The translations under genes and the position numbers were made by a program. Of a stretch of DNA of 64,000 nucleotides, positions 3,956 through 33,557 are shown one piece after another. Under the pieces are notes generated by a model. That model was not told the origin of the DNA. It did no database searches and was given only the letters and a program-made list of their open reading frames with translations. Position 1 is the stretch's first letter, and each line of letters starts with the position of its first letter. This stretch comes from Sphyrna mokarran (Eukaryota): assembly GCA_024679065.1 (NCBI GenBank), contig JAGIQG010000040.1:5642001-5706000 (forward strand), written 5' to 3'.

Positions 3956-4135
3956 CAGGGACACCAACAATAGCGAGGATGGGATAATATCCCTCTTGAA
4001 TACGTACATCTTGAGTACATCGTTAATCTGACAATCCCATGGTCTCTGACTATCAATGGACTCGGTAATGTTCAAGTGGAAATCTTCATCGAGTGTTGTA
4101 AAATTCCAAACTATTGTCCCCAGATACTGGTCCAT
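3956..4135 (-). pseudogene. Orphan GPCR (GPR139/142-like) copy C, exon 1, frameshifted; exon 2 would lie left of the window
   Basis: Near-identical to exon 1 at 13918-14092 and has the same CCTG|GTAAG donor (3955-3951), but it is 180 nt instead of 175 nt. A 5-nt insertion near 4005-4015 shifts the frame before TM1. Confidence 0.8.
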
Positions 4136-4649
4136 TGTTGTAACGTTCCAATCTACTCTCGGATTCTGATCTCTCCTCCCCCCTCACTCAGGCTGCGAGG
4201 GCCACAGTTACGCTCCCATTGAAAGGAATGGCTTATTAATAGAAGAGGGAAACCCTCCAGTGACACAGTTCGGATCCATGGAGACTGTCATTTATTCCAC
4301 TCTCTAAACAAACAAGTACAATTAACTCCTTTCAATCCAAAACAATTTGTATTACAATCAAATCAAACATTTACTTGGTATGGGTTGGATGTATGAGGTT
4401 GACTGAGGACAGGTATGGTGGAAATATCAGATATACTGACCATAATATTTCAATCCTCCTTGGATAAGGGAATGGTGCCAGAGTATGGGAGAGCTATACA
4501 TGTTTCATGTTTAGAAAAGGAGAAAGGGATAAAGCACAGAACTAATAAAGAAGTTAAGGTGAAATAAACGGGGGGAAAGGGGTTTTCCAGCGTAAAATAT
4601 TGTTCCTGACTGAATGTTGCAGACCGACACATTTTAGATTCCAGGACTC

Positions 4650-6325
4650 CAACATTTTCATGCACAGGTTCCAACAAGACTTTTTCACCGCACAGGATCT
4701 TCAACCGATGCTATACACTAGATACATCGATGACACTTTCTTCTTTTGGACTCATGGTGAACAAACAGTGAAACAACTATATGATGATATTAACAAGTTC
4801 TATCCTACCATCAGACTCATCATGGACTCCCGCATCGGTGGCATTCGTGGACACACGCATCTCCATCAAGGACGTTCTCCTCAGCACCTTACTGTACCGC
4901 AAGCCCACAGACAACCTCACAATGCTCCACTTCTCCAGCTTCCACCTCAGACACGGTAAAGAAGGCATCCCCTATGGATAAGCCCTCCGTATGCACAGAA
5001 TTTGCTCAGATGGGGAGGATCGTGACAAACACCTGCAGACGCTAAAAGATGCCCTCATGAGAACTGGATATAGAACATAGAACATAGAACATTACAGCAC
5101 AGAACAGGCCCTTCGGCCTTCGATGTTGCGCCGACCAATATAAATAGCAATGCCCCTCCAAACTAAACCATTCCCTTCTCTTCCATATACTTATCAACTA
5201 AGCTCTTAAACGCCACCAAACTTGGCGCTTGAGTCGAGCGCCATTTGGATATGGCGCTCGACTCATCGATTAACAGTTCCGAAATGCCACAGCGATAAAC
5301 CACACTGACCTCCTCAGACGACAAACATGGGACGCAGTAGACAGAGTACCGTTTGTTGCCCAGTATTTCCCCGGAGTGGAGAAGCTAGGACATCTTCTCC
5401 GGAGTCTTCAACATATCATTGATGAAGACGAACACCTCTCCAGGGCCATCCCCCCCATCCTCACTTCTTGCCTTTAAACAACCGCACAATCTCAAATAGA
5501 CCATTCTTCGCAGCAAACTACCCAGACTTCAGGAGAACAGTGTCCACAATATCACACAAACCCGCCACAGCAGCCTCTGCAAGACATGCCGGATCATCGA
5601 CATGGATGACATCATCACACATGAGAACACCATTCACCAGGTACACGGTACATACTCTTGCAACTCGGCCAACATTGTCTACCTAATACGCTGCAGGAAA
5701 GGATGTCCCGAAGCATGGTACATTGGGGAGACCATTCAGACTCTACGACAACGGATGAATGAACATCGCTCGACAATCACTAGGCAAAACTGTTCCCTTC
5801 CTGTTGGCGATCACTTCAGCGGTCATGGGCATTCGGTCTCCGACCTTCGGGTAAGCATTCTCCAAGGAGGCCTTCACGACACACGACAGCGCAGAGCCGC
5901 TGAGCAGAAATAAACTGATAGTTTTGCACACATGAGGACGGTCTCAATCGGGATCTTGGGCTCATGTCACACTACCTGTAACACCCTTGACTTGCTTGGA
6001 TTTGCAAAACCTCACTTACTGTAGTGTCTGGAAACAATACACATCTCTTTGACCCATAGCCAATGTTCCTTCCACTCACGTTGTCAGCACCTTTAAGAAT
6101 TGAATAGCAGGTTAGTTTTAAAGACTCGCTTTCTAATAAGTAATCTGTAAACTGTCTATGCTGTTATATGCTCTGTCTGAGGTCTGAACTCTCCATTCAG
6201 CTGACGAAAGGGAAAACCTCGAAAGCTTGGGAGTTTGCTATCAAATAAATTGGTTAGATTTAAACCTGGTATTGTCAGACTTCTTATTGTATTTACCCCA
6301 GTCCAACGCCGGCATCTCCACATTA
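4650..6325 (+). mobile_element. 5'-truncated Penelope-like retroelement (RT C-terminus, GIY-YIG endonuclease, pLTR)
   Basis: NIFMHRF..YTRYIDDTFFFW RT motif (ORF 4600-4959); LYRKPTD; NIVYLIRC..WYIGET..LRQRMNEH GIY-YIG (ORF 5602-5913); pLTR at about 6150-6325. Confidence 0.9.
5072..5245 (-). mobile_element. Short CR1/SINE 3'-tail insertion into the Penelope element
   Basis: (agaacat)n microsatellite tail plus acaggcccttcggcc stem, flanked by TGGATAT direct repeats at 5065-5071 and 5246-5252. Confidence 0.75.
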
Positions 6326-7400
6326 CAACAGCTGGTTACACACACTGGCAAATCAATATTTTCCTGTGCACACACATCCCAAGATCAATCTGCAGAAATC
6401 CCACCAGAAATAGTGGGATTTTATATAGTTATATTTACTGCGTGGTTGTAACATTAGCTGCCCACCATTAACACCACAAACTCCTGCTGCTTTCCTGAAA
6501 CGAGTTCTTTCCATGCAATGGAATGTGTTAAAAGGAAAGTGACATTCGGTTTAAAATATCATCCGCATTGGAGACGGTTACGTCAGGTGAAAATGTTGAT
6601 AATTAAATGAAACATGTTAATTGTCCTTCAGTGTGAAATAACGTAGAAATATTAACCAAATATTGCGCTGAGATGTCAGCAGATTCTGAGCGTTTGCTGC
6701 CACCTTTTGGGAGAGCTCAGAATTTCTCCCGTCATGTTCCGTTCAGTTCAGAATATTATTCAGGAATTAGTTTTGCAAAAAATTCGAAAGACTACACCAA
6801 AGCTGTCTTGTCATTAAATATTGCGTTGTTCGGTGTAAGTGCTATACTGAACTTTATCTCTATTTATAATATTTCATGCCTTTTTTGCTATTGTAATACT
6901 AAACTACATTTCATGTATTATTTTATTAGATAATCTTGTTTTGATCGTGCAAGGCCATGCCTTGCTAACAACTGTCCAGACCATGCCTCTTCTCACAGGG
7001 CACAAACCAGTGTCTCAGCTATTATGACACTGAGCCCATATGTCTGCCCTAATTTCACTGGATCGGTGCCTGTTTATATTACACGAAGGTTGTCTCCTTC
7101 CTTCAACATTATTCGCCTTGTAATCCATCAAAGACGCTGCCGGTTGTTAACGGTCTCAGACCGTACCCATGTCTATATTGCAAATTTTACAAAACTGTGT
7201 AAATTCTCTAAGAGAGTTTGGATTGTGTCCGAAATGTCTTTGATGTAAATGGAATAGCGGAAATCTTCCCCAAATCTGTTACTCTCGGTTTGGAAGTTAT
7301 TGACGTTTATTTGAAACCAGTACATTCTCTTGATAGGTTATAAAGAATAGGTTTCTCCCCAGCCTGCCCCTATCCCACACACCCTGTCACATTGTGGCAG

Positions 7401-7520
7401 TGTTTTTGTACAAGGGCCCCTCAGCTTCAGTCCACAGAAATACATCGCGGGGTCAGCCAGTCGCAGCTCATGGATAGTGAAATTCCCCCATTTTTTAAAT
7501 GTCTGAAGATGAAGGAATTC
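7401..7520 (-). pseudogene. Truncated TCR V remnant (FR3 only) with nonamer but no heptamer
   Basis: Minus strand reads LHLQTFKKWGNFTIHELRLADPAMYFCGLK, then about 15 nt, then ACAAAAACA (7409-7401). Confidence 0.65.
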
Positions 7521-7659
7521 GAATTCTCATACACTTTGCTCTGAAAGCTTCCACAACAAGTGGAATGTAGCTAGTCTTTTTATGATTTGAGTTATATTAC
7601 AAATCCACAATCCAGTTCACAGACCTGATTCAGTAAGAGAAGGCGAGAGTGTCTTTGCT

Positions 7660-7697
7660 GGTTTTTGTACGGCTGACTGTGTCTCTGTAACACTGTG
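7660..7697 (-). other. Recombination signal sequence CACAGTG-22 bp-ACAAAAACC
   Basis: Consensus heptamer at 7697-7691 and consensus nonamer at 7668-7660. Confidence 0.93.
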
Positions 7698-8133
7698 GTG
7701 TTCAGGGCGCAGTGATAGACGGCAGAGTCAGAGATATGGACCCCGGTGATAGTTAAAGGAACTGTTCTCTTGCCTTTGTCCAATTCAGCCAAAAACCGGT
7801 CAGGACAATGTGGAGATTTATCCATCTGTCCCTTGCCGTAACTGTTCAGTAAATATCTCGGAGCTTTCCCGGGATATTGAATGTACCAGAAGAGAGTCTC
7901 ATCAGTGTATTTTGTTGTGTAATTGCAATTCAGTATTACCGTCTGTCCTTCCTGGGCCGTGAATTCGGGGAGGTCCTGGAAAACCGAATCTTGGCCATTG
8001 GTTCCTGTAACAACATAGAGAATATGTGAGAAATCTGAGTGAAAATAACCGATGAAACACATACTGAGGATTTGAGCTCAGACTTACCCGGCAGTGTGAT
8101 CATTACTATCAGTAAAGCACACAGGGAACACAT
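7698..8133 (-). CDS. TCR alpha/delta-type V segment (leader exon 8133-8088, V exon 8004-7698)
   Basis: Leader MCSLCALLIVMITLP with GTAAG donor and CAG acceptor; V domain ..VILNCNYT..LFWYIQYPGKAPRYLL..DSAVYHCALN; RSS follows directly. Confidence 0.92.
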
Positions 8134-11100: not shown

Positions 11101-12149
11101 AAATACTCAACATAAAGCAATGTAATAAAAAGGTTCAGACAGAATCGTATTATGTGCACGCTGTGTCTGTAACTCTGCAGACGGAAACACCCAGTTTTGG
11201 GGCAGAAGTTGCCCCTCCGACTGCACTGCAGATTTAACAAATCCCGATCGAGAGAATAACATGCCCAATAACAGAAGGTAGTCAATATAGATCAGAGGCC
11301 TCAAAGGCGGCTGACAATGCTGGTGTTATTTGTTTATATTTTCAGTTCGGATCAGCGGGGAGTTTGTAACCAGTGCGCCCCCTGGCGAAGGTCTGAATCT
11401 TTCAATGTTAGGACAACGAAAACGTGCAAATTTATCCATAGGGCAGTTTCCAGTGCCCGGGTTTTAGGAGATACTTCTCAGAAAATTCAACTGCATAAAT
11501 ATGAGCGTTTATTTCAATTTTCCGTGGGACTTAGGCGCCGCTGACTGGCCAGCATTATTGCCCATCCCCAGTTACCCTTGGAGGGCAAAGTCAATCACAT
11601 TGCTGTGACTCTGGAATCACATGTAGACCAGACCAGGTAAGGATGGCAGATTTCCTTCCCGAAAGGACATTAGTGAATCAGATGAGTTTTCGTACCATCG
11701 ACAAACGTTACGTCCGTGAATTCTAAAATGTTATCCCGGGTACCCTTGAGCATTAACTGAATCACTGGATTAATCGTCTCACGATAATACAACTAGGCCA
11801 TCCCCTCTTTTTTTATAATATCACCTGATTTTCGCTTTGTCTGTCACACTCGGTACTTTACAATCTCGATCTCTACTTCAACAGTTTCCTTATTTTCTGT
11901 CCACTCCTCCTACAATGACTGAAATTTCCTCTGTCCTGTTTTTCAATCACTCAGTCTAATTTACATGTTCCTCTTTCCTCTTCACCATTTCTGTTTTCAA
12001 CTCTCTTCATTTCTGACAGAATTTTAATAATTAGATTCTATATTTTATTTTCAGTTGCGCTCATTTACTTTTTTGACTATTTTAAAATAATCTCATCACT
12101 CACTCTGCCGACACTGCAGACACACAGAGTAGCTCTCACAGTCGATGCA

Positions 12150-12188
12150 GATTTTTGTATGGGACCCCCCTGTATTTGTTACACTGTG
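12150..12188 (-). other. RSS CACAGTG-23 bp-ACAAAAATC
   Basis: Heptamer 12188-12182, nonamer 12158-12150. Confidence 0.92.
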
Positions 12189-12521
12189 GCTCATGGCACA
12201 GAGATAGGTGGCAGTGTCTGTAACTCCGGCGCCTCTCACAGTCAGGGTGCTGAATTTGTAGTCTTCCCCGATTGAGGCAGTGATCCTCTCGCTTTGATCG
12301 GTTTCTCTTCTGGCCGTCACCAGATGCTGGGGTGGCTGATTCGAGGACTGTGTGTACCAATGCAAGCCGTCAAACATAGTGGTTGTAGTGCAGTTGATGG
12401 ATATGGTTTCCCCTTCGCTGACAACCTTCCACCGAGGGAGCTGCACCACCTCATCTGCTCCAGTCACTCCCGTGAAGATCAGCGTGAGGAAAAGCAAAGA
12501 AAATCTGTAAATTCGGAACAT
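12189..12521 (-). CDS. TCR alpha/delta-type V segment with leader and V in a single exon
   Basis: Continuous ORF MFRIYRFSLLFLTLIFTGVTG-ADEVVQLP..ISINC..LHWYTQ..DTATYLCAMS with no splice acceptor at the leader/V junction. Confidence 0.9.
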
Positions 12522-13917
12522 TTTTCAGATCAGATGAAATTCCTGTTCAAGCAATTGCCCAAGGAGTTCAGTTTAGAATTAGGATATGTATATAATATTC
12601 ACACGAAATAACAAGGAGCCAAAAACCTGCTCCAGTTGCAACTGTGGCGTCTCTCTGTCGAGCTGATGAAAGAAGCTGAGACTCGAGCTTTATCCGCTCA
12701 CACTCACGGATGTCGATTCTACTGGAAACAGAGATGGAGAATTGAAACCGGAATAAATAAACCCCATCGGCAACCCCATGTTTCCGGTTACAAATCTCAT
12801 TCCACGTGTCTAAATAGAAAACCATTCTTCCCAGCAGAACACTGACTGAACCCAGCTCGGGGTGGATCTATTCACTGGCTGCCGGCTCACCAGCTCCCAA
12901 CCCCACAGAACCACCGCCGACACAGGGAAATGCACTGAGAGCATCCCGAGACATGACAGCAAAATATACAGGGTCAAGTTTGACACGGGTGTCTTCAAAT
13001 ATCTAATTCCCCTTTTACAAAACAGGTAAAGAAAATGCTCAGCATTTGGGCTGTTTGGAGAATATTCGTAACAAGTAATTGTGAACAAAAACGCATTCTA
13101 TATTTACTTTAATTTTACAAACGTGATTCAAAATGAAATTTTAAGTGTTCAGGACCTGTAATTTCCTCGGTCCCGGTAACAAGATGCTTTTCCCAAAACC
13201 ATATATTTTGCACGGACCAACACAAACTGACATCGATTTCAATAAAAATAATTGAAAAATATTGATCTGTCAGGTTTTTTTGCCCATTAATATTATATCG
13301 TCCAGGTATCATTAGCAACTTGAGCTCCAAAGAGCTTGGTACAGCAAAGTACCAACAGGTACTTTGTAAGAAAGTCTTTTTGGAACCTGTGCATGAAAAT
13401 GTTGGAGTCTTGGAATCTAAAATGTGTCGGTCTGCAACATTCGGTCAGGAACAACATTTTACACTGGAAAACCCCTTTTCCCGCGTTTATTTCACCTTAA
13501 CTTTTTTATTCGTTCAGTGCTTTATCCCTTTCTCCTTTTCTAAACATGGAACGTGTACAGCTCTCCCATGCTCTGGCACCATTCCCATATCCAAGGAGGA
13601 TTGAAATATTATGGTCAGTATATTCAATATTTCCACCATACCTGTCCTCAGTCAACTTCATACATCCAATCCATACCAAGTAAATGTTTGATTTGATAGT
13701 GATACAAAATGTTTTGGATTGAATGAGTTAATTGCACTTGTTTGTTTAGTGAGTGGAATAAATGACCGTCTCTATAGATCTGAACTGTGCCACTGGAGGG
13801 TTTCTCTCTTCTATTAATAAGGCATTTCTTTCAATGGGAGCGTAACGGTGTCACTCGCAGCCTGAGTGAGGGGGGAAGAGAGATCAGAATCCGAGAGTAG
13901 ATTGGAACGTTACAACA

Positions 13918-16900
13918 ATGGATCAGAATCTGGGATCAATAGTTTGGAATTTTACAATACACGATGAAGATTTTCTCTTGAACATTACCGAGTCCATTGA
14001 TGTTCAGAGACCATGGGATTATCAGATTAACGATGTATTAATACGTATTCAAGAGGGATATTATCCCATCCTCGCTATTGTTGGTGTCCCTGGTAAGTTT
14101 CTCTATCCAGTTATTTATTCTAACTGCCTCAGACTGCATTTTTTTCTGGTTATTTACACTTTGGAAAGAATGAATTCATTCTCTTAAGCTCCAGTTACTC
14201 ATTCCATCCCATATTCCACGGTTCCAATCCCCTCTCTGGTTGCTATCAGAGGCTTCCCGCAACCTACAATCTCCCTTTTACCCTGATTGGATTTCCAACC
14301 CCATATTCTCCCCATCCCAAACCCTGTCCTCAGCCACCTCAATAATACCACACATCCTCACTTCTGCCTCAGCCCAGCCCATCCGTTGAATAATTCCTCA
14401 TTTCCATGTGAATATTCTCATTATTAGTTTCATTACTGCAACTAATTCCGTTCATCTGTCCATTCCCCAGATTCCTGCAAATCCTTCCCCTTCAGGATTT
14501 GTCCAATTCCCTGTTTGAAATTAATTTCGTTCTCTCACCTGTCTATGATAGTCACATCCACATAGTGAAAGTTGCAAACTAAAAATGCTCAGAAGCAATA
14601 GAATGAAGTAGGAAGCTTTTACATTTACTTTGCAATGCCTCCGGTGTGGTATTCACGTTGGAGGGGATGTTTCAACAGCTCTGACACATGTCTTTATAAC
14701 TTGACCCGTGCCGGTCCACGGAATGCCTGTGTTAGTCACTCTCAGCAGGACATGTGTTCAGCAGCACGAGGAACGTCCCCTCAAATGTTATTTTTAAATA
14801 TATTTTCATTGAATTTTAAGATTTTTACGAATAATACAACATACCCACAAACCTGGTCTAGTACAGCTGGATGATTTCCCAATATATAAACATGGAAAAG
14901 GGCAGGAAGAAGGCAATACAGTTCTTTCATTACGTTGCGTTTGAACAGCACCTCCACATGTACGAAAAAAACAAGAGCAGACAAGTAACAGCATGGGCAA
15001 AAGAGGATAAACTCAGCAGCAACCTTGTGCACTGTCTACAAGATACATTTGCAGTAATTCACCAAGGATCCTTTCACAGCACCTTCCAACCCATGACCAT
15101 TTACATCTCGAAGGACAAGGTCAGACTGACTTGAAATATTAACTCAGGTTCACTCTGCACAGAGGCTGCAAAAGCCCCTGTGCTTTTCCTAAATTTTTTG
15201 TTTCCATTCTAACATTTCAGCATCTGCACTGCTATTTTTTAGTATCGAGCTGGCCAGCGATCGGGAGGCTGGCAGTGTGGACACTTCACATGCGCTGATA
15301 TCAGCACTTTTGTGACAATCAACTTTTCTTATGTGTGTGTCTGTGGGTTTCAGGAGTAAGTGATGGCTGCATTTTCCACATTTTGCAACAAATAAATGTT
15401 TATCTGACGAAAGCCTGTTTTTTGACAATTTTGAGAAATCACTCCCCTAAAGGGTTTAAACACTTCTCACAATTGCAACTTGTAGCAATGAAGAAACCAA
15501 AGAACATTGAATAAAGCAAATGACAGCACAGGAACAGGCCTTTTGGCCCTCCGAGCCTGTACAGACCATGCTGCCCGACTGAATGAATGTGACCATGTCC
15601 CTCCATTCTCATCCTATTCATGTATTTTTCAACATGAATAATGTTGCTCATTAAAAGCCACTTAAAAACCACTATCATATCTGCTTCCACTACCTCCCCT
15701 GCAGCGAGTTCCAAGTACCCATCACCCTCTGTGTAAAGAACGTGCCTCACACATTTCTTTTAAACCTTGTCCCTCATACATTAAATCAATGCCCCCAAGT
15801 AATTGACTCTTCCATGCTGGGGAAAAAAAAAGCTCTAACTATCCACTTTGTCGATGTCCCTTATAATCTTTAATCTCCTTGGTAGCTAGTGAGGATGCGA
15901 AGATTTCTCTCAAGGCCCTATCAATTTTCTCCAATGCTTCTCTCAATATTCAGAGTAAATCCCATTAGGTCCTGGGGACTTTACTATCTTAGTGCTTCCC
16001 AATACTTTCTCCCTTTTTTATCTCAGAATGATTGAAACTATCTGCATATCCTCTCTCAGACTCATCAGGCACTAAGTCCTTCTCTTTGGTGAATGCTGAC
16101 GCAAAGTAACACTTTACCCTTTTCTCTGGCTCCACGCATAGAATATTTCCCTTGTCCTTGATTTGGACTAACCCTTTCCACTGCTACTTTCTTATTCTTT
16201 CTATGTGGATAAAAAGCCTTGGGATTTTCCTTGCAGATCAATGATTTTCTGTGATTCGTTTTCGCCCTACTTACTCTTCGCCAATGTTTCTTTCCACTTC
16301 CCTTGTATTCCACACTTGCCTGGTGTTTTCCCAGCCTTCTAGCCTTGACAAATTCTTGTTTTTTTTTCTCTTTGACTAGGCTCACAATACCTTTCGTTGT
16401 CCGAATTGACTAAACCTTGCCATTTTTATCCTTCATCCTTATAAGAATGTGCCAGTCCTGAATCACTATCAACTTACATTTGAAAGCCTCCAACATGCCA
16501 AGTGTTGATTTTCCCTCAGATATCTGCCCCAGTCTACATTCTTCAGTTCCTGCCTAATATTGTTGTAATTAGCCTTCCCCCAGTTTATCACTTTAACTTG
16601 AGAACCACACATATCCTGATCCATCAGTACTGAAATCTTACTAAATTGTAGCCACTGTTGCCGAACTGCTCCCTACTGAAAAGTTGACTAGCTGGCCGGG
16701 TTCATTCCCCAATACAAGGTCCAATATGGCTCGTTCCCTAGTTGGACTATCTAAATACTCTTTCAAGTAGCCCCCCCACCGCGGATACTCCTTATAACCT
16801 TGCTCCATCCGCACCGTTAGCACTGAGACTCAGTCAATATAGCATGTGTTAAAATCTTCCGCTACAACTACCATGTTACTTCGACACCTCCCCAAATTTT

Positions 16901-19900
16901 GCCTACATATTTGTTCTTCTATCTCCCGTTGGCTGTTGGGCACTCTATAGTAATCCCCAACATTGTGATTACACCCTTCCAATTCCTTAGCTCTACCCAT
17001 ATTGCCTCAATGCATGGGCCTCCTAGCTGCCCTCCCGCCGTACACTTGTGAGTTTCTCCTTAATCCTTAACTGCTTCACCCCTTTGACTTCTCCGTCTAA
17101 CAAGCCTGATACATCAATATGCTCAACGTTAAGCTGCCAATCCTGTCCTTCCTTTAATCAAGAGTCTGAAATAACTCCATAGGTCCAAGTACTAATCCAA
17201 GCCCTATGTTCATTTTCTTTACCTGTTATACTTTTTGCATTGAAACAAATGCACTTCAGTCCACCAGAACCTCTTTAATTAGCAACCACATCCTGCTTGC
17301 TCTTTCTCTGAGGCTTACTGGCCCTACTCTCTCGTTCCCCTACAGTTAATTCACATTTTTTTGGTTCCCACTCCTCTGCCAAACTAGTTGAAATCGTCAG
17401 ATGTTACATGAGCAAACCTCCAGGTCAGAATATTTATGCCTGTCCAGTTTAGATGCATCCCAGCCTTCTTGTAGAATTACCACCAGGCCCGGAAGTGATC
17501 CCAATCGTCCAGATATCTGAAATTCTTCATCTTACACCAGCTGTTCAGCCACGTGTTGAGCTGTGATGTCTTCCTATTTCTAGCCTCACCTGGCAAGTGA
17601 GACAGGGAATAAGTCTGAGATTACAACCCAAGGGGTACTGTTTTTCAAGTTGCTACTAAACTCCCAAACTGCTGTTGCAGGAATTCAGTACGAATATGTA
17701 CCACAACCATTGGCTTTTAACCCTCTCCCTTCAGAATGCTTTCTGCCCATTCAGAGACATCTTGGTGTGAGGTGATGCATTTCGGGAGAAAGAATGTAGG
17801 GGGTGCGGTATATGATAAAGGGTATACCTATAAAGAGTATAGAAACGCAGAGGGACCTGGGGGTGCAGGTGCACAAGTCTCTGAAGGTGACAGAGCAGGT
17901 GGAGAACAAAGAACAAAGAACAACACAGCACGGGAAACAGGCCCTTCGGCCCAACGAGCCCGCGCCGCCGTCTTAACGTCATAATGACTTAGAGACCAAT
18001 ATAGGGACAATTTGTTACCCAATCAGCCTAAGTGCACATTTTTGGGATGTGGGAGGAAACCGGAGCACCCGGAGAAAACCCACGCAACCAGGGGAGAACA
18101 CGCAAACTCCCGCAGACACAGGCAGAAATGTGTCTGCACAGCAACAGCGATAGTCTCTGAGCTGTCATGTTGCCCATCTGATGGTCCAGTTTAAGCATAC
18201 ACTAACGACTTGAAGCACTAGGCCACTCCTGAAGTAACATCCAAGAGCAGCCCTCGCACGACCTGCCGAATGCATGCACCTTGTTGGTCATCAAGGTGAA
18301 CTGAATAGCCTGTGGAAACAAAGTATTTAAACTGTCCTCCTATATCCCTCTATCTGCAGACCGCTCATGTGGCTGTCCAAGAGTCCCTTAAACAACCCTA
18401 ACGTGCCTGCTCCCACCACCCCACTCGGCAGTGCATTTCACACCCCCACTACCCTTTGTGTGAAAAAAATGCCTTCTGATATTTGTCTTATACATAGCCC
18501 CCCTCACCCTAAGGCCATGACCCCTCGTTCTATCCGAATCTAATGGTGGGAAAAGCTTACTACCATTTACTCTATCCATACCCCTCATAACCTTATATAC
18601 CTCTAATAGATCCCCTCTCAGCCGACGTCTTTCAAAGGAAAACAACCCCAGTGCTTTTAAAATTTCCTCGTAGGACAGCCCTTCCATACCAGGCAACATC
18701 CTGGTAAATCTCCTCTGCACTCTCTCCAGGGCCTCCACATCCTTCTGGTAGTATGGCGACCAGAACTGGACGCAGTACTCCAAGTGAGGCCTAACCAACG
18801 TTCTGTACACTTGCAACATCAGACTCCTACTCTTGTATTCTATACCCTTTCCTATGAAGGCTAACATACTATATGCTTTCTTTATCACTTTCTCCACCTG
18901 TACTGACACCTTAAGAGACTTGTGAACCTGCACCCCCAGGTCTCTCTGCGTCTCTATACTCCGGATAGTTTTGCCTTTTATCTTATAACTCCCCTCTACA
19001 TTATTCCGGCCAAAATGCATCACCTCGCATTTATCCGGATTAAATTCCATTTGCCATCTATCTGCCCAATCTACCAGCCTATCTATGTCCTGTTGTATTG
19101 CCTGGCACTGCTACTCAGTCCCCACCAATCCAAGCATCTTAGTGTCATCAGCAAATTTGCTGATCACACCACCTACCCCCTCTTCCAAGTCATTTATATA
19201 AATCACAAATAGAAGAGTTCCTAGTACTGAGCCCTGTGGCACACCACTAGTGACAGACCTCCAGTTGGAAAAAGAGCCTTCCACTACTACCTGCTGTCTC
19301 CTCCTCCCAAGCCAGTTCTCAACCCATCTACATATCTGGCCCTGTATCCCATGCGCCTTCATCTTTTTTATCAGCCTACCATGGGGAACCTTGTCAAACG
19401 CCTTACTGAAATCCATGTAGACGACATCAACGGCTTGTCCTTCATCAACCGTTTTTGTAACCTCTTCAAAAAATTCCACTAGATTCGTAAGGCACGACCT
19501 CCCCTTAACGAAGCCATGCTGCGTATCCCTGATCAGATTGCAGCGCTCCAGATGTTCATACATCCTGTCCCTGAGGATCCTCTCCATTAGCTTACCTATA
19601 ACTGAAGTTAAGCTCACCGGCCTATAGTTCCCTGGGTTATCCCTCTGACCCTTTTTAAACAACGGTACTACATTTGCAATCCTCCAGTTCTCTGGGACCT
19701 CACCTGTGTCCAATGAAGAGACAAAGATTTGCGTCAGAGGCCCAGCAATGTCATCTCTCACCTCCCTTAGCAGCCTGGGATAAATACCATCATATACTTA
19801 TAAATAAGCTTTATAAGTCTTTATGCTACCTAAAAGTCCCAACACTTCGTCCCTCGTAATGATTATTTCCTTTAACGGATCCTCAAAATCCTCAAAGCCA

Positions 19901-22900
19901 TCGTCAGACATCAGGCCCCTCTCCCGCGTGAATAACGACGCGAAGTATTCATTCAGGATCTCCCCCATTCCCTCAGGCTCTAAGCATAGTTTCCCTCCTC
20001 TGTCCCTGAGAGGTCCAATCTTCCCTCTAACCATCCTTTTGCTCCTTACATAGGAGTAAAATGCCTTAGGTTTATCCTTAATCCTACCTGCCAAAGCCAT
20101 TTCGTGGCCCCTTTTTGCCTTCCTGACACCCCTTTTTAGATCCCGTCTACACTCTCTATATTTTTCTAGCGCTGCCTCTGTCCCCAGTTGCCTGGATCTA
20201 ATGTACGCCTCCCGTTTCTTCCTGACCAAGTCCTCAACATCCTTAGTAACCCACGGTTCTCTAATCCTACCCTTCCCATCCTTCCTCCTTACCGGCACGT
20301 GTCTTTCCTGCAAAAATTTTAGTTTTCCCTTGAAAGACTCCCACATGTGAAGCGTTGACATACCCTCGAACAGCTTATCCCAGTCGGTATCCCTAAGATC
20401 CTGCCTAATCTGACTATATCTAGCCCTCCCCCAGTTTAACACCCTCCCCTTAGGGCAGGCTTCATCTTTTTCCATTAATACCCTAAAGCAGACAGAGTTG
20501 TGGTCACTATTAGCCACATGCTCTCCTACTACAACCACCTGCCCTGGTTTATTCCCCAGTACCAGATCCAGTATAGCCCCCTCTCTAGTCGGGCTATCCA
20601 CATATTGCTCCAAAGACCCTTCTAAAACACACTGTACAAATTCCTCCCCGTCTGCACCTTCCGCTCTCGGCACCTTCCAATCTACCCCAGGGAAATTAAA
20701 ATCTCCCATTACAACTACCCTATTCTTCCTACACTTTTCTAAAATTTCCTTACACATCCCTTCTTCCACGGCACGCGGACTGTTGGGCGGTCTGTAGTAC
20801 ACACCCAACATAGTAACCTCTCCCTTCCTATTCCTCAATTCCACCCATAGCGACTCAATTCCTAACTCAGCCTTACCTCCCTCCTTCTGCACTGCTATAA
20901 TGTGATCCTTAACTAATAACGCCACTCCCCCTCCTCTCCTCAAACCACCTCTATCATGCCTAAAACACTTATACCCTGGAATATTCAATTGCCAGTCCTG
21001 CCCTTCTTTTAGCCACGTCTCAGTCACCGCCACCACTTCTAACTTCCTCTTGTACATTATTGCCCTCAGTTCATCTGTTTTGCGAGTCACACTCCTTGCA
21101 TTAAAACACATGCACTGAAGGCCCTCAGGCACTCTCCGGGATTACCCTATCACCAATCTCTCTCCCTCTCCCAGTTCCCTCTATCTCCCCACCCCCCCTC
21201 CATATTAGTTTAAACCCTGCCGAAACACTCCAGCTAACCTCCCAGCTAAAATATGCGTGCCCTTCCCAGACAACTGTTCCCCGTCCATCTTGTATAGATG
21301 CCCCTCCCTCATGAAGACTTCCCAGTGGTCTAAGAATCTGAATCCCTCCACTCTACACCAATCCCTCAACCACGCATTCAGTTGGAGCACCTCGTTGTTC
21401 CTAACCATATCATTCCCAGGTATTGGCAGCAACCCAGAGAATGCCACCCTGGAGGCCCTGCACTTCAGCCGGGCCCCCAATTCCCTGAACTGCATACGTA
21501 TCTCCCCCCTGCCCATTGTTCCTACATCCTTCTCTCCCACGTGCACTATTACGTCTTTCTTAGCTCCTCCAACCTTCAAAATTCCATCTACCCTCTCTGT
21601 AACATCATGGACCCCTGCTCCAGGGAGGCAGACTACCATCCTGGAGTCACGCTTTTGCCCACAGAACCGCCTGTCGATCCCCTTGACCTTCCCATCCCCC
21701 ACCACTATCTCACATCCCTCCCTCCTACTGTCCTTCGGGGCATTCAGATCCTCTGCCCTTGCACTCTCTACCTCAGCTGTTGCCCTACCCTTCATGTTCC
21801 GTGATGCCTCCTCTGGGGTGAACTTGTGCCTTGACTCCTTTTCTTATTCTTCTTCCTTTCTGTCACCCACCCGTTTCTCCTCACAGGCCCTGGGGTCCCT
21901 TCTGGACTATGGTCCCTGTTCATTAGCCCCTCGTTCTCTCTAAGTATAAACATATCCTCAAGTCTTAGCTCCAACTGCCTCACCCGAGCCCTCAATCGTT
22001 GCACTTCCAAACACTTAGTGCATATGTGGGCTTTCGGGAGACGTGCTGTCTCCAAGAATGTCCACATGTGGCATCGAACGCAGCGGACGCGTTTCATCAG
22101 CGACCTTGACATTTTTTACAACCCCTTTGGAAATGTTGGACCTAGAGTTTGGGAGGTGTAGGAGTACAGCCACTTGCCACGTCCACGCCTGCGCTCGCCC
22201 AAGCCCAGTGAGCTTAAGCCCTGACAGCTCTCACTCTGCTCTCCGCCTCACTCCACTGCCCGCTCCCGACGCTGCCCGTTGTGAAGGTTTTGAAGAAAAC
22301 ATATGGTATGCTAGCCTTTATAGGAAGGGGTATAGAGTACAAGATGTTGCAGTTGTATAAAACGTTGGTTACATCTCATTTGGAATACTATGTCCAGTTC
22401 TCGTCGCCTTACTACCAGAAGGACGTGGAGACTCTGGAGAGAGTGCAGAGGAGTTTTACCTGGATGCTGCCTGGTATGGAAGGTCTGAGTTACGAGGAGA
22501 GATTAGGCAAATTGGGACTGTTTTCCTTAGAAAGACTTAGAGGAGAACAGAATGGGAACAGAATGAACAGAATGGGAATGGAGGGGTATAGAAAACTGAT
22601 TTAAAATAGGGATCATGAGCCTTGGGAGTCCCTTAGAAGTGTGTAAACAGATGATGATATTGATGTACTTGTTTTTATCCTACAGGTGCTTTGGTCCACC
22701 TTGTTGTCTAACAAAGGGCATACACGCGATGGGTGTAGAGGGCTGCTCTTGAATTTTTTTTTCGAGAGTATCCTAGTGCTTCATGTCATTAGTGTACGCT
22801 TGACCTGGACCATTTGATGGGCAACACGACAGCTCAGTGACTATCGCGTGATACACGTATTTGGACCTGTGTCTGTAGGAGTTTGCACATTCTTCCCGTG

Positions 22901-24501
22901 CTTGCGTGGGTTTTCTCCGGGTACTCCGGTTTCCTCCCACATCCCAAAAATGTACTCTTAGGCTAACTGGCAAAAGAAATTCCCCCTAAATTGTCTCAAA
23001 TTTGCTTTGTAATCCATAGATCTATAAACATAGACAGGGATCGCGTGTCGAGGTGGGAACATCGGGGAGGCGGCGCGGGCTTGTTGGGCCGAAGGGCCTG
23101 TTTCCCGTGCTTTTTGTTCTTTGTTCCTTGTTCTTTGACCCTGGTACCAGGGAGGCAACATAGCATGGTGGAGTCTCTATCACATCTAAATGAAATCCTT
23201 TAAAAATCGTCTCAAATCATTTGGAAAACAAATAAATTGTCAACGCTGTCCTCCTCTGTCCCTAACAGGCCCATCACCCATGGCATGTCCCAATAACTCC
23301 AGCGCCGCAGCATTCCTGAGTTCTGCATCATCCTGCATCCCACCACGATGCCCAGGATCCTAATCACTCTACATTCTTTCCATCGCCTCTGGCACCCCGT
23401 GTCATTACTGCTTCACCCTTTTTTCTGCTCACCCTGTTTTTATTTCATTTATGATTCCTTCCATTGGGTCGCAAATGTTCCCATTTGTTCTATCAGCTTG
23501 AGTACTTTAATACATTTCAGTGTACAGTAGCACATCTCAATAACTACTCAATCAAATGGTCATTTTGCCAGCAGCATGATGTATGATTGCATTATTTATT
23601 TCCCTTTCTCACAGTGAACTTAGTCACCATTGTGATCCTCATTCGCAAAAACTGTGGTCTCTCCAGATGTGTCACTCGTTACCTGGTGGCCATGTCATTG
23701 TCAGATCTGCTGGTTATTATCCTTGACCTGATATTGAGACACATTCCAATTGTTTTTAATGAATTGTTTCATTTCCTGAAATTGATCCCCGTGTGTAATA
23801 TCCACGCTGTCCTGCTTTATGCAGCCACTGACTGTTCTGTCTGGTTCACCGTCACTTTCACCTTTGATCGATTTGTGGCCATTTGTTGCCAGAAGCTGAA
23901 AAATAAATATTGCAGCGAGAAAGTGGCATCTGTGGTTCTGGGAACAGTGACTGCACTGAGCTGTTTAAAGAATATTTTCTGGTATTTTATGGTAACACGT
24001 CAGTATGCATTGATGAACGACCCTTGGTTTTGTAATTATTCATTTGATGTCAAGTTTTCTCCAGCCTGGGGGGCAATGGTGTTCCTCCATTACATTCTAA
24101 CACCATGTATTCCATTTGTTCTGATTCTTCTTCTCAATTTTCTCACTGTCAGATACATTTTAGCAACGAGCAGAGCCCGCAAAAGGCTCCGGGCTCACTG
24201 CAATGGTGAGAGTGTCAGAGACCCAGAAATGGAAAGTCGAAGGAATTCCATCATTTTACTGTTTGTTATTTCAGCCAATTTCATCCTGTTATGGTCAACG
24301 ATAATGATCGATACTTTATCTTTCCAGATATTCTGGTTAGGGTATCCATATGTATACAGTGCGGTTTTTGTTGAAGCGTTGGGATTCATGTTGCAGCTCC
24401 TGAGCTGCAGCACAAACACTTTTATTTATGCGGTCACCCAGACTAAGTTCAGGGAGCAGCTGAAGAATGTGATGAAATACCCATTTACTCAAAGTCATTA
24501 A
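13918..24501 (+). CDS. Intact two-exon rhodopsin-class orphan GPCR, GPR139/GPR142-like (copy A); exon 1 13918-14092, exon 2 23615-24501; 353 aa
   Basis: Exon 1 ends [12 protein letters not shown]|GTAAG (phase 1); exon 2 starts CAG|TG AAC (VNLVTIVIL). Seven hydrophobic segments, [10 protein letters not shown] (TM2), [10 protein letters not shown] (DRY-like), FILLW (TM6), TNTFIY (NPxxY-like). Family call is from motif recognition. Confidence 0.88.
15490..17765 (-). mobile_element. Decayed CR1 LINE in the GPCR A intron (paralogous copy of 60-2340; continues at about 23139-23200)
   Basis: Reverse complement of 60-2340; ORF 16641-16823 ([22 protein letters not shown]). Confidence 0.85.
17766..17905 (+). 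mobile_element. 5' piece of a truncated CR1 (continues at 22283-23138)
   Basis: Reads [28 protein letters not shown] and joins seamlessly to [10 protein letters not shown] at 22283. Confidence 0.8.
17904..22282 (-). mobile_element. Near full-length CR1-clade LINE: ORF1 (Cys-knuckle/coiled coil 22112-21792, esterase-like 21795-21205), ORF2 APE-RT (21132-18388) with a few disruptions, long 3' UTR
   Basis: APE motifs [25 protein letters not shown]; RT motifs [38 protein letters not shown]. Disrupted near 19800, with a TAG at 19113-19111. Confidence 0.95.
22283..23138 (+). mobile_element. 3' piece of the truncated CR1, with the same extended 3' UTR and (ttctttg)n tail
   Basis: ORF 22281-22604 ([30 protein letters not shown]); CR1 tail at 23080-23138. 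Confidence 0.85.
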
Positions 24502-28730: not shown

Positions 28731-29815
28731 CGTTTGCTTTTTGCAAAAAAAACTTTATTTGTCAAATACCTGGTCGAGCATTACAAGCATCTCGAAGTGG
28801 CCACAAAGTACAGGTATGTACAGTTTCTCTACATACATCGTGTTGCATTCTATGGTGATTCAATACAGTCAAAAAAAAACATCGCAGACATTGCAAAATG
28901 GTCGTTATCAGTGGTAAAAAGATCCTTCTGTTCTTTACATTCGGCTCTAGATGATGGTGACGGCCTCTGAGTCCACTTTTCACCCCTTCCGCAAGGTGGC
29001 TGTTTCTGTCTCTTCTATTTTTAGTTGTTTCTCGTGCCGAGATTTCTTCATTTGTAAAATACATTGAAAAACATGCTGAACAAAATGGCCATCACACAAA
29101 GTACACAAATGGTCTGCACAGACCGAGTTGCATTCTGAGATGCTTCAATCCAAATGTGATACATGTAATATGAGCCGTGTGCATTCGCTGTGGATCATAA
29201 TGCCCGAGTTGATCTATAACATTCCTTATCTTTCTATTCACAATGGCTGAAAGGTCTTCCACAGCAACCTTCCCATTTTGTGCATATGTGATGATTTTCC
29301 CTTGCTTTACTGCATCCCTCAGCAAGTAATCCTGGCTTCTGGAATTTGTCAGTCTGCAACATGCGGTCGGGGGCAACATTTGACACTGAAAAACCACTTC
29401 AATTCATATTGATTGATCTATTGTTTTATGGTTTATCCATTCCTCCTTTCTTTGAAACTGTCCTGTGCCCTGGCACCACTCCCATTTCCAAGGAGTTTTG
29501 AAAGATTATAATCAGCATATCTACTAATTCCACCTTCCCTGTCCTCAGTCAACCTCATACATCCCACAGATACGAGTAAATGTTTGACTTGATTTGGATA
29601 CAAAATGTTTTGGATTGAAACGAGTTAAATGAACTTGTTTGTTCAGTGAGTGTAATAACTGTTAGCCTCCATGGATCCCAACTGTGTCACTGGAGGGTTT
29701 CTCACTGCTATTAATAAGGGATTCTTTTCAATGCAGCACTTACTCAGGAACTCATAGCTTGGGTGAGCGGGAGAAAAGACACTAGCATCTGAGAATAGAT
29801 TATAATGTTAGAACA

Positions 29816-32800
29816 ATGGCGCAGACTCTAAGCTTATGCAATTTGAATATTACAACTGTGGATCAGAATCTGAGAGCAATAGACTGGAATTTTCTAACAG
29901 ATGATGGAGATTATTTCTTGAACATCGTTGAGTCCATTGACGTTCAGAGTCCATGGGATTACCAGATCGACGATATATTGAAAAGCATTCAAGAGGGATA
30001 TTATCCTGTCCTTGCTATTGTTGGCGTCCCTGGTAAGTTCTTCCATCCAGCTATTTATTCCATAAACTGTGATGAACTGAATTATTTTTCTGGTTATTTA
30101 CGCCCTTGAATAAAATGAATTCGATTTCTTCAGCTCCAATCGCTCATTCCCTTCCGAATCCCGTGACTCCACGCCGCTCTCTGGTTGCCAGCACAGGCCA
30201 CTCATAACCTAACATTTCCGTTTGACCTTGGCTGGATTTCCAATGTCACATTCTCTCCATCCCAAGTCCTGTCTGCAACCATCTTGATAATATCAAACAT
30301 GCCCACTTCTGCCTCAGTGCAGCACATCCATTGAATAATTCCTCATCTCCGTGCGAATATTCTCATTCTTGGTTTCACTGCTGCAACTAGTCCCCAGTCC
30401 ATTCATCAGATTCCTGCAAATCCTCTCCCTTCAGGATTTGTCCAATTCCCTGTTTGCAATGAATTCCGCTCTCCCACCTGTCTGTGATATTCACATCCAC
30501 ATGGTCAAATTTGCCAGCTTAAAGAAGCTCAGAAGTAATAGAATGATGTGGGAAGTGCTTACATTTACTTCCCGCTCTCTCTGGTGTGGTATACATGTTG
30601 GAGGGGATGTTTTAACAGCTCTGACACATGTCTTTGTAACTTTGTCTGTGCCAGTCCACTGAACGCCTGTGTTCATCACTGTCAGTCGGAATGTATTAAG
30701 CAACACGAGGGATCTCCCCTCTAATGTTCTTCTTTGAATGTATTTTCATTGAATTTTGGCATTTTTATAAATAATACCTCAAGCCTGATCCAGTACACCT
30801 CCAAGTTTTTCCCATATATAAACATGGAAAAGGACAGGAGGAAGACAATGCAATTCATTCAGTATGTTCCGTTTGTGCAGCTCCTCCACATATACAAGAA
30901 AAACAAGAACAGACAAGTAATAGCACAGGTAAAAGAGGATAAACTCAGCAGCAACCATGTGTACCATCTACAAGATGCATTGCAGCAATTCACGAAAGAT
31001 CCTTTCACAGCACCTTCCAAATCCACGACTACTCTCACCTAGAAGCACAAGGTCAGACTGATTTGAAACGTTAACTCAGTTTCACAGTGCATTGATGCTG
31101 CAACAGCTTCTGGGCTTCTCTGAAATGTTTTGTTTTCATTCTAAATTTTCAGCATCCGCACTGCTATTTTTTAGTTTCGAGCTGGCCAGTGAGTGGGAGA
31201 ATGGTAGTGCGGGTTACTTCACATGGGCTGATATCAGCACTGACAGATCGACACATGTGCACTGCCCTACTCAGTGTTATGCTGACGGCCCTTCCGATGA
31301 GAAGACTGATTTCAGCGTGAAGGGCTCTGTGTAGTGCACAGACTGTGGGTGATTCATTTTGAAACTCCCACTGAAAATACCAACAGGATTTGCTCCGTTT
31401 TTTCAGTGAACTTGACACTTGGAATTTTTTTGAACAATAGCCCCCACGATCTTTTTTGTTCTGCATTTCTAATAACTTAAATGATGTTAATTTTTGGTAA
31501 CCATCTTTTCTTATGTGTGTGTATGTGGGGTTCAGGAATAAGTCACTGTTCCATTTTCCATGTGGTGTAGTAAGTAAGTGTTTATCTTATGAAAGTCTCT
31601 GAGCTGTCATCCAGCCATACAGTTGGGAGCTTCTACTTTATATGTTGCACTTCTCGCATTGAAACAAAGGCACTTGAGTCCAGCAGACTCTCTTTCACAC
31701 TCTGCCTGCGTTTTCCCACAGTCTTAGCGGCCTACTGTCTGGTTCCCGTTCAGTCAATTCACTTTGCTTTAGTTTCCACTCCCCTCAAACTAGTTTAAAT
31801 CTTCCCTTGTGACACGAGTGAACCTCCCAGCCAGAATTTTTATACCCTTTCAGTTTAGATGTAGCCCACACTTCTTGTAGAGTTCTCACCTGCCCAGAAG
31901 AGATCCCAAAGGTCCAGATGTCTGCAACCTGACATCCGACACCAGCTGTTCAGCCACTTGTTGAGCTGTGCTATCTTCCTATTTCCCATCCCACTGGCAT
32001 GTAGCACAGAGAATAATCCTGAGATTATAACCTGACAGGTACTGCTTTTTAACTTTCTACCAAACTCCCTAAACTGCTGCTGCAGGACCTCATCACTCTT
32101 CCTACCTGTCTCATCAGTACGAATATGCACCTCAGAAACTGGCTGTTCACCCTCTCTCTTTAGAATGCTTTCTGTCCATTCAGAGACACGCTAGACCCTG
32201 GCACCGGAGAGGCAACATACCATGCAGATGTATCTTTCATGTGCAAGTCAAAATAATTTAAAATCGTTTTAAGTCATTTGGAAAATGCATAAATTGTCAA
32301 CATCTCTCCTCTGACCCGAACAGGCCCCTCACCCGTGGCTCTCCCAGTAACCCCGACGCCCAATCACTCCTCAGTTCTACATCATCCCTGCATCCCACCA
32401 CAATCACCAGGATCCCCTGTCACCCTAGACGCTCTCCATCACCTCTGGCTCCTTGTGTCATTCCTACCTCACATTTTGCCGCACACCCTGATTTTGATAC
32501 GATTCCTCAATTGTATCACAGACGTTGCTATTGTTCTGCCAGATCTGGTTATTTTAATACCTTACAATATGCAATAGCACGTCTCAATAATCCTCAATCA
32601 AAGTAATCATTTGCCAAACGCATGATGTGTGATTTCATTGTTTATTTCCTTTCCTCACAGTGAACATAGTCACCATTGTGATCCTCATTCGCAAAAACTG
32701 TGGTCTCTCTCGATGTGTCACTCGTTATCTGCTGGCCATGTCATTGGCAGATTTATTGGTTGTTATCCTTGACCTGATACTGAAACAGATTCCAATTGTT

Positions 32801-33557
32801 TTTGATGAACAGTTTCAGTTCCTGAAATTCATCCCTGTGTGTAATATCCACGCTGTCCTGCTTTATGCAGTCACTGACTCTTCTGTCTGGTTCACCGTCA
32901 CTTTCACCTTTGATCGATTTGTAGCCATTTGTTGCCAGAAGCTGAAAAATAAATATTGCAGTGAGAAAGTGGCATCTGTGGTTCTGGCAACAGTGACTGC
33001 ACTGAGCTGTTTAAAGAATATTTTCTGGTATTTTATGGTAACAAATCAGTATATATTGATGAACGACCCTTGGTTTTGTGATTACTCATTTGATGTCATG
33101 CTTTCTCCAATCTGGGGAACAATTGTGTTTCTTCATTACATTCTAACCCCATGTATCCCATTTATTCTGATTGTACTGCTCAATGTTCTCACCGTCAGAC
33201 ACATTTTAGTGATGAGCCGGGCCCGCAGGCGACTCCGGGCTCATTGCAATGGGGAGTGTCAGAGACCCAGAAATGGAAAGTCGGAGGAACTCCATCATTT
33301 TACTGTTTGTTATTTCAGCCAATTTCATCCTGTTATGGTCAATGATAATGATTGATACTATATCTTTTCAGATGTTCTGGTTGGGGTATCCATCTCCATA
33401 CAATGTTATCTTTGTTGGGCAATTGGGCCTCATGTTGCAGCACCTGAGTTGCTGCACAAACACTTTTATTTATGCCGTCACACAGACTAAGTTCAGGCAG
33501 CAGTTGAAGAATATGATGAAATATCTCTTTACTCAATGTCATTTAGGAAAGCATTGA
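29816..33557 (+). pseudogene. GPCR copy B (exon 1 29816-30032, exon 2 32661-33557) with a 2-nt deletion frameshift in ICL3
   Basis: Splice sites are intact. Copy A ggtgagagtgtc corresponds to copy B ggggagtgtc at about 33251-33260. ORFs 32660-33355 and 33249-33557 carry TM1-5 and TM6-7 in different frames. Confidence 0.8.
31640..32230 (-). mobile_element. CR1 ORF1 fragment in the GPCR B intron
   Basis: ORF 31855-32130 (QFREFGRKLKS..IISGL..LNKWLNSWC). Confidence 0.75.

What the first reader, a model, noticed from the sequence alone, without database searches (positions are those of the whole stretch)
3956..33557. An array of GPR139/142-like orphan GPCR genes embedded inside a TCR V-segment cluster
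Seen: three copies of a two-exon 7TM gene (C on minus at 4.1 kb, A at 13.9-24.5 kb, B at 29.8-33.6 kb) alternate with RSS-bearing V segments (V at 7.7 and 12.2 kb between C and A; V array resumes at 39.9 kb). Known: mammalian TRAV genes are intermingled with olfactory receptor genes, and GPR139 is a single conserved gene in mammals. Inference: a locally expanding, birth-and-death GPCR family occupies the equivalent niche in this fish TCR locus. It could be an uncharacterised chemosensory or immune receptor repertoire co-duplicating, and perhaps co-regulated, with V genes.
Basis: partly seen in the sequence, partly recalled or inferred. Interest (0 to 1): 0.75.

Follow-up and report, generated by a model that had tools for sequence, protein, structure and literature searches.

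The report
Shark orphan receptors among TCR segments
One intact and two broken copies of an orphan cell-surface receptor gene sit among T-cell-receptor gene segments in a shark; they belong to a very large receptor family spread across shark and ray genomes, one branch of which appears to have multiplied inside the antigen-receptor region.

Summary
The anatomy is mostly right. Gene A is an intact 353-aa class A GPCR. B has a 2-bp deletion and C a 5-bp insertion, and only C's first exon is in the window. Nine RSS-bearing V segments surround them.

These are not GPR139/142 orthologues: 20-21% identity to GPR139, with 3 of 6 pocket residues lost. Nor are they a TCR-locus family. They belong to a shark-and-ray family that NCBI labels 'probable GPR139' (2,293 protein clusters hit; horn-shark hits on 37 contigs). 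Its nearest named outside relatives are in coelacanth, teleosts and salamanders.

A local link survives. A and B form a branch with at least five catshark paralogues on a 133.84-Mb chromosome, probably chr17, which carries the antigen-receptor complex (inferred from length). V12.2, next to A, is an inverted duplicate of V42.6.

Best reading: a peptide-type orphan receptor branch copied passively by segmental duplication with V segments. Expression and co-regulation are untested. I found no paper on the family in my library searches. This scan noted the family twice before, on other DNA.

The parts
3956..4135 (-). GPCR copy C, exon 1, frameshifted by a 5-bp insertion; exon 2 not in the window
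   Evidence: flanking region 91% identical to A, inverted
7660..8133 (-). V7.7: open leader exon + V exon, TCR alpha/delta-like, RSS with 22-bp spacer
12150..12521 (-). V12.2: open V with leader fused to the V exon (no intron), 23-RSS; TCR-beta-like family
11980..13336 (-). Inverted duplicate of 41870-42997 (78%) and 39025-39202 (81%), ending 35 bp before the GPCR upstream block that starts at 13371
13918..14092 (+). GPCR A exon 1 (N-terminus with two N-glycosylation sequons, first half of TM1)
18391..22115 (-). LINE insertion (ORF1-like, endonuclease and reverse-transcriptase frames) in A's 9.5-kb intron
23615..24501 (+). GPCR A exon 2 (rest of TM1 to helix 8); A is the only intact copy, 353 aa
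29816..30032 (+). GPCR B exon 1, with a 42-bp extra N-terminal unit relative to A
32661..33557 (+). GPCR B exon 2, frameshifted by a 2-bp deletion near 33,270
39868..40290 (+). V40 pseudogene (stops); end coordinate approximate
41509..41860 (-). V41.6 pseudogene with 23-RSS, recognised by eye; upper coordinate approximate
42466..42837 (+). V42.6: open, intronless leader, 23-RSS; paralogue of V12.2 (68% aa)
44501..44849 (+). V44.6 exon, open, 23-RSS
45258..45605 (+). V45.4 pseudogene (in-frame stop), 23-RSS
47530..47876 (-). V47.7 exon, TCR alpha-like, RSS with a variant heptamer
49760..49990 (-). V49.8 remnant; coordinates approximate
51434..51953 (+). V51.7: open leader + V exon, TCR alpha-like, consensus 23-RSS
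58988..59314 (+). V59.1 exon, open, consensus 23-RSS

Best explanation
A, B and C are members of a very large shark-and-ray family of orphan class A GPCRs from the GPR139/GPR142/GPR210 neighbourhood. One branch of it settled in the shark antigen-receptor complex and multiplied there by the same segmental duplications and inversions that scatter V segments; copies then decay. Shown: gene anatomy, family size and spread, the branch, local duplication. Inferred: the location in the antigen-receptor complex and its conservation in catshark. How A most likely works (inferred, no functional data): a G-protein-coupled sensor of peptides or amino-acid-like ligands, with a conserved deep pocket and TM3-ECL2 cysteine pair and a variable outer vestibule. 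For the family I put about 50% on a chemosensory role, 25% on leukocyte signalling and 25% on something else. The neighbourhood of V segments is passive.
For: Family: 2,293 clusters at E<=0.001 of 3,040 candidates; 117 of the 120 listed are from 10 shark species and named 'probable/putative GPR139', 3 are unnamed. 133 clusters at 50% identity reach E<=1e-30; 4 of the 20 that I looked up are rays or skates. The tree of 159 sequences has largely species-specific clades; A+B (support 0.998) are sister to catshark P0003 (0.975), with 11 columns where all three depart from the family majority, including E214V, W294S/D and R296Q near the tops of TM5 and TM6. P0003's cluster holds at least 5 distinct catshark proteins, 90-94% alike, with near-consecutive accessions on one 133,841,611-bp sequence. 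PMC12227049 table S1 puts catshark TCR alpha/delta V, IgM, IgW and IgNAR on chr17 with genes out to 133.54 Mb; chromosomes are named by size. The same table has a great-white trio (+ V, - V, + 'TCRbV') at offsets 0, 1571-2096 and 2547, against 0, about 1680-2170 and 2598 for V40, V41.6 and V42.6 here. Local inverted duplications. Purifying selection: dN/dS 0.20 in the core, 0.42 in the outer part without the N-terminus (Fisher p 0.024). Entropy in 119 sequences: ECL1-3 1.55-1.84 bits, TM3 0.23. The AlphaFold model (pLDDT 87) matches class A receptors, peptide receptors on top (VIA Z 24.7, rmsd 3.1, 260 aligned for the kappa-opioid receptor; all 50 rows shown lie within 1.4 Z).
Against: The chr17 assignment rests on a length match and my recall of that chromosome's length; the cluster's position on the chromosome is unknown, and it could be tens of Mb from the V segments. 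No member of the A/B branch appeared among the top 120 hits for great white, cloudy catshark, Mustelus or the other sharks, so the link is patchy. Two V-segment searches returned no catshark record. Only 120 of 2,293 hits were shown, so the make-up of the rest is unknown. Variable loops are common to class A families and I ran no control family; dN/dS stays below 1. No expression data. B's frameshift could be a sequencing error.
Confidence: 0.6

Rival explanations
1. Incidental neighbour: a copy of a genome-wide family landed among V segments in this lineage only, and the catshark cluster lies elsewhere on the same large chromosome.
For: The family is on many chromosomes: 8 horn-shark sequences of 20 Mb or more, and 3 catshark clusters on 3 different sequences. 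Catshark chr17 is flagged as rich in recent gene duplicates (PMC11979771 passage). No great-white protein of this branch among the top 120, although its V trio matches the window.
Against: The single closest foreign clade sits on a sequence whose length fits the antigen-receptor chromosome, about 3% of a 4.22-Gb genome, and has itself expanded there.
Confidence: 0.2
2. Functional immune linkage: this branch is kept inside the antigen-receptor complex because it is switched on with the V segments in lymphocytes and senses an immune or pathogen peptide.
For: Physical interleaving and shared duplication. Branch-specific loss of conserved charged or aromatic residues at the pocket rim. Catshark models carry several isoforms, which in my recall of NCBI annotation implies RNA support, tissue unknown.
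Against: 2 of 3 copies are frameshifted. The wider family has no evident tie to this locus.
Confidence: 0.12
3. They are duplicated GPR139 or GPR142 orthologues that sense L-Trp and L-Phe as in mammals.
For: GPR139 is the best PDB hit of the family profile, E 3.2e-12. NCBI gives that name. GPR139 also has two exons (PMC7318219 passage).
Against: 20-21% identity against 70% for human versus zebrafish GPR139. E108, R244 and N271 are replaced by L, I and F (alignment). A is closer to a coelacanth gene (34%) that is itself a distant match to GPR139.
Confidence: 0.04
4. The arrangement is an assembly artefact (collapsed or duplicated haplotypes).
For: Sharp inverted junction at 13.34-13.37 kb. No raw data of this species could be laid against it.
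Against: Duplicated blocks are only 75-91% identical and carry different insertions. The V trio has a counterpart in another shark.
Confidence: 0.03

Closest known systems
GPR139 / GPR142 (class A orphan receptors)
   Same: Nearest solved relative by sequence profile; two exons; H5.43 and W6.48 kept, F3.33 conservatively changed to Y; no proline in the TM7 motif in either (alignment).
   Different: 20-21% identity; three polar pocket residues lost; TM3 and ECL2 cysteines invariant in 119 of 119 shark sequences but absent at the aligned GPR139 positions; many copies instead of one.
GPR210A/B (orphan near GPR139/142 in coelacanth, gar and fishes; PMC6504862)
   Same: My nearest named non-chondrichthyan hits are coelacanth, teleost and salamander genes at 27-34% identity, the same range of species.
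   Different: That paper's passages have no occurrence of 'shark' or 'cartilaginous' and describe three small gene sets. I could not map my coelacanth hit to its Ensembl ids, so identity with GPR210 is not shown.
RefSeq models 'probable G-protein coupled receptor 139' of sharks and rays
   Same: A is one of these: 67-78% identity for 117 of the top 120 hits (54, 66 and 66% for the other three).
   Different: An automatic label only; no description found in the searched library.
Protostome FMRFamide / MIP-sex-peptide / myosuppressin receptors and nematode Srw chemoreceptors
   Same: Share an origin with GPR139/142 (PMC8514136 passages); Atlas neighbours are FMRFamide-receptor-like clusters, and 16% of the top cluster's members carry Pfam Srw. 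That Srw is a chemoreceptor expansion from this clade is recalled.
   Different: No ligand known here; no Srw hit for A itself at E<=0.001.
Olfactory receptor genes beside mammalian TRA/TRD V segments
   Different: A is not an olfactory receptor (two coding exons; only 7tm_1 in Pfam), so this would be an independent arrangement.
Elasmobranch antigen-receptor complex (PMC12227049)
   Same: Scattered alpha/delta-type V exons in both orientations, with a TCR-beta-like V among them.
   Different: The paper has no occurrence of 'GPR' or 'G protein' in its text, and none of 'GPR' or 'coupled' in its two supplements.

Membership tests
Class A (rhodopsin-like) GPCR | 7tm_1 profile above the curated cut-off | tested here: met
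   49.7 bits against cut-off 30.5
Class A (rhodopsin-like) GPCR | Seven-helix bundle with helix 8 and ECL2 hairpin | tested here: met
   AlphaFold model of exon 2, pLDDT 87; Foldseek and VIA matches; first half of TM1 not modelled
Class A (rhodopsin-like) GPCR | Conserved microswitch residues (D2.50, DRY-like, W6.48, TM7 motif, TM3-ECL2 cysteines) | tested here: met
   D89, D143-R144-F145, W285, N326..Y330, C119 and C198 are conserved in 117-119 of 119 sequences; the usual TM6 and TM7 prolines (recalled) are absent
GPR139 orthologues | High identity to human GPR139 (70% for zebrafish) | tested here: not met
   20-21%; single-sequence search missed GPR139 at E<=0.001; benchmark
GPR139 orthologues | Agonist pocket E108, F109, H187, W241, R244, N271 | tested here: not met
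   2 of 6 identical, 1 conservative, 3 replaced; read by hand from the alignment with the residue list
GPR139 orthologues | Tree placement with GPR139 or GPR142 | not tested
GPR139 orthologues | Activation by L-Trp / L-Phe | not testable with these tools
   needs an assay
GPR210A/B group | Clade with the coelacanth, gar and fish genes named in PMC6504862 | tested here: inconclusive
   Coelacanth, teleost and salamander relatives lie just outside the shark clade (low support at these nodes); ids not mappable
Shark/ray 'probable GPR139' family | High identity over the 7TM core and nesting in the chondrichthyan clade | tested here: met
Known vertebrate chemoreceptors (OR, TAAR, V1R, V2R, T2R) | Family-specific Pfam profile | tested here: not met
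   only 7tm_1 at E<=0.001 for exon 2 of A and B; TAARs have no separate profile (recalled), but no trace-amine receptor was among the 24 PDB profile hits
TCR V segments | V-set exon followed by an RSS with a 22/23-bp spacer | tested here: met
   7 of 7 open V frames hit V-set and each ends at an RSS
TCR alpha/delta V | Best single-domain matches to TCR alpha chains | tested here: met
   V47.7 and V51.7; V7.7 weaker, with few single-domain rows; V12.2/V42.6 look TCR-beta-like; V44.6 and V59.1 not typed
TCR alpha/delta locus proper | Linked D, J and C segments | tested here: inconclusive
   no 12-RSS J cluster seen in the window; no genome held

The most novel reading that the evidence does not exclude
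Sharks and rays carry an unrecognised repertoire of hundreds of peptide-sensing GPCRs per genome, and one branch has been captured by the antigen-receptor complex, has changed its pocket rim and is expressed in lymphocytes together with the V segments around it.
Probability: 0.12. Interest if true: 0.85.

Novelty: new variant of a known kind. Interest (0 to 1): 0.58.

Why it matters
Cartilaginous fishes are described as having a 'relative paucity' of GPCRs (PMC8455134 passage) and as smelling mainly through one family, V2R (PMC11979771 passage). A class A family of this size, hidden under an automatic 'GPR139' label, would change that inventory. It can be tested at once with existing shark tissue RNA-seq. 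The TCR angle is the weaker part, but a branch that has duplicated with V segments in two sharks would be a second case of GPCRs inside an alpha/delta V field, and a test of whether such neighbours are passengers or co-regulated.

Tried and rejected
Whole genome: none held, so no paralogue count or enrichment test for this species. Synteny by V homologue search: 1 hit and 10 hits, none from catshark; inconclusive. Accession-number interpolation on catshark chr17: one nearby accession, no chromosome given; dropped. CRE-like promoter motif (recalled) within 300 bp of 6 V and 3 GPCR starts: 0 of 9 hit against 0.57 expected per site; uninformative because the V starts lack it too. Fold searches do not single out a family: GPR139 ranks 20th and 28th by Foldseek and is not among the 50 VIA rows; that is no exclusion. 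Catshark expression tables (PMC11979771 supplement) could not be read and may bear on tissue expression and chromosome length. Prediction that the unlisted great-white gene LOC121270142 is a member of this branch: not checkable, and no such great-white protein is among the top 120 hits. Literature searches for a description of the family: searches found none; finds in PMC11979771, PMC7677710, PMC8455134 and PMC12227049 showed no GPR139/GPR term; subscription journals are mostly outside the library. Rows dropped from the tree: P0001, P0002, P0004 (long models; P0001 repeats its C-terminal part); of the 150 representatives, 39 were used.
Full report
WHAT IS THERE. The window holds three copies of a two-exon GPCR gene and eleven V segments or remnants. 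Gene A (13918-14092 and 23615-24501, plus strand) is open for 353 aa, with a GT-AG phase-1 intron in TM1; exon 2 hits Pfam 7tm_1 above its cut-off. Gene B has the same layout but a 2-bp deletion near 33,270. Copy C, on the minus strand, is exon 1 only and has a 5-bp insertion; bases 1-107 match the end of A's intron, so its exon 2 should lie just outside the window (inference). Seven open V frames hit V-set, and 9 of 11 strict RSS hits abut a V exon or remnant (no shuffle control). The order is C, V7.7, V12.2, A, B, then the V array from 39.9 kb.

DUPLICATION HISTORY. Self-comparison shows C as an inverted copy of A's first half (87-91%), with B older (75-77%). The stretch 11980-13336, which holds V12.2, is an inverted copy of 41870-42997 (78%, V42.6) and 39025-39202 (81%), and ends 35 bp from the start of the GPCR upstream block. 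The 39.0-kb piece follows B's 3' flank after LINE-derived sequence. So V DNA and GPCR DNA were moved by the same kind of event. That they moved as one unit is my inference.

THE FAMILY. Exon 2 of A finds 2,293 protein clusters among 3,040 candidates. Of the 120 listed, 117 come from 10 shark species and are labelled 'probable' or 'putative GPR139'; 3 are unnamed. I did not see the other 2,173. Horn-shark hits alone (55 clusters) lie on 37 contigs, 8 of them 20 Mb or more. A profile search found 133 clusters at 50% identity with E<=1e-30. Among 20 representatives that I looked up were sharks, four rays or skates, and more distant genes of salamanders, coelacanth and two teleosts, the latter 27-34% identical to A. 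A FastTree tree of 159 sequences shows largely species-specific clades. It has no GPR139 or GPR142 row, and its deep nodes are weak.

RELATION TO GPR139. GPR139 is the best PDB hit of the family profile, at E 3.2e-12, but A alone misses it at E<=0.001 and the structural alignments give 20-21% identity. Human and zebrafish GPR139 are 70% identical (PMC7318219, passages). Of the six pocket residues named there, H187 and W241 are kept, F109 becomes Y, and E108, R244 and N271 become L, I and F (read by hand). The shark proteins keep two cysteines in TM3 and ECL2 in 119 of 119 sequences, which GPR139 lacks at the aligned places. So they are relatives, not orthologues. PMC6504862 (passages and a supplement search) named an orphan GPR210A/B next to GPR139/142 in coelacanth, gar and fishes, with no mention of sharks; my bony-vertebrate hits may be these, but the ids could not be matched. 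PMC8514136 (passages) places GPR139/142 with protostome FMRFamide, MIP and myosuppressin receptors, and the Atlas neighbours agree (leads only).

THE LINK TO THE ANTIGEN-RECEPTOR REGION. A and B are sister to catshark P0003 (support 0.975) and with it depart from the family majority at 11 columns. That cluster has at least five distinct proteins, 90-94% alike, XP_038630088-102, on one 133,841,611-bp sequence. PMC12227049 (passages, sections 6 and 19, table S1 in full) places catshark TCR alpha/delta V, IgM, IgW and IgNAR genes on chr17 out to 133.54 Mb, and says alpha/delta-type V exons lie between the IgH clusters. The length fits chr17, and I recall that length for chr17, but no call shows it, and the cluster's position is unknown. 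The same table lists three great-white models whose order, orientation and spacing match V40, V41.6 and V42.6 within about 100 bp, the third labelled 'TCRbV'; V42.6's family indeed looks beta-like, while V47.7 and V51.7 look alpha-like. The window is therefore probably part of this complex. Against conservation: no protein of the A/B branch from great white or any other shark besides catshark is in the top 120, and two V searches gave no catshark record.

HOW IT MOST LIKELY WORKS. A folds as a class A receptor with an ECL2 hairpin, nearest to peptide receptors but with near-tied scores. It is under purifying selection: dN/dS against B is 0.31 overall, 0.20 in the core and 0.42 in the outer part (Fisher p 0.024; regions set by hand from the model). 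Across 119 close relatives the three outer loops are variable (1.55-1.84 bits) and TM3 is nearly fixed (0.23). I read this as a conserved deep pocket with a variable vestibule, suited to many peptides with a shared end. No control family was run, and this pattern is common in class A. The A/B branch has lost family-typical residues at the rim (E214, W294, R296), so its ligand may differ. A chemosensory role for the family is my first guess (about 50%), by analogy with nematode Srw receptors from the same clade (recalled); leukocyte signalling is next (25%). None of this is shown. There is no result on expression.

WHAT IS IN PRINT. Eight library searches (listings seen) found no description of the shark family or of GPCRs among shark V segments. 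Term finds in the catshark, bamboo-shark and whale-shark genome papers (PMC11979771, PMC7677710, PMC8455134; passages only) showed no GPR139 or GPR term; the last speaks of a paucity of GPCRs in cartilaginous fishes. PMC12294341 and PMC10768021 (passages) added nothing. The catshark supplement could not be read, and subscription journals are mostly missing. Two earlier notes of this scan describe the same family in other genomes. My reading predates them; one calls the family confined to sharks, rays and chimaeras, whereas I find more distant relatives in bony vertebrates. A word search of the scan for a TCR link returned nothing.

VERDICT. The solid result is a large, mislabelled receptor family. 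The new element here is a branch that probably expanded inside the antigen-receptor complex in two sharks, most likely as a passenger. New variant of a known kind; interest 0.58.

Noticed in passing
window 12189-12521 (-) and 42466-42798 (+): Both V segments have the leader fused to the V exon with no intron. Their only database relative found (P0128, 64%) is a V-J-C chain whose constant start aligns to TCR beta: a beta-like V family among alpha/delta-type V segments.
   Followed up: partly
window 39868-42837: The trio V40(+), V41.6(-), V42.6(+) has the same order, orientation and spacing, within about 100 bp, as three great-white models at chr27:9.05 Mb, the third labelled 'TCRbV' in PMC12227049 table S1.
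   Followed up: partly
window 13870-13960 and 29816-29900: The N-terminus is built from a short repeated unit with a glycosylation sequon. 40 of 87 relatives with a scorable N-terminus (of 120) carry 1-5 units by my pattern; A has a further unit in frame upstream of its ATG and B a 42-bp extra unit.
   Followed up: partly
window 4558-5940, 40703-41077, 49988-50656: GIY-YIG-bearing retroelement fragments (Penelope-like by recall), three related copies.
   Followed up: no
window 7660-7697 (-): V7.7 has a consensus heptamer and nonamer but a 22-bp spacer, while the other eight V-linked RSS have 23.
   Followed up: no
P0143, P0208, P0140, P0187: Several public models join a family member to unrelated sequence (integrin alpha in catshark by its source name; a sodium-channel-like part and others by eye); probably annotation joins of neighbouring genes.
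   Followed up: no
P0243, P0247, P0252, P0274: Salamander, coelacanth and teleost genes labelled 'probable GPR139' are distinct from GPR139 proper and keep the TM3 cysteine; they look like bony-vertebrate relatives of the shark family. No amniote member was among the 20 representatives I named.
   Followed up: partly
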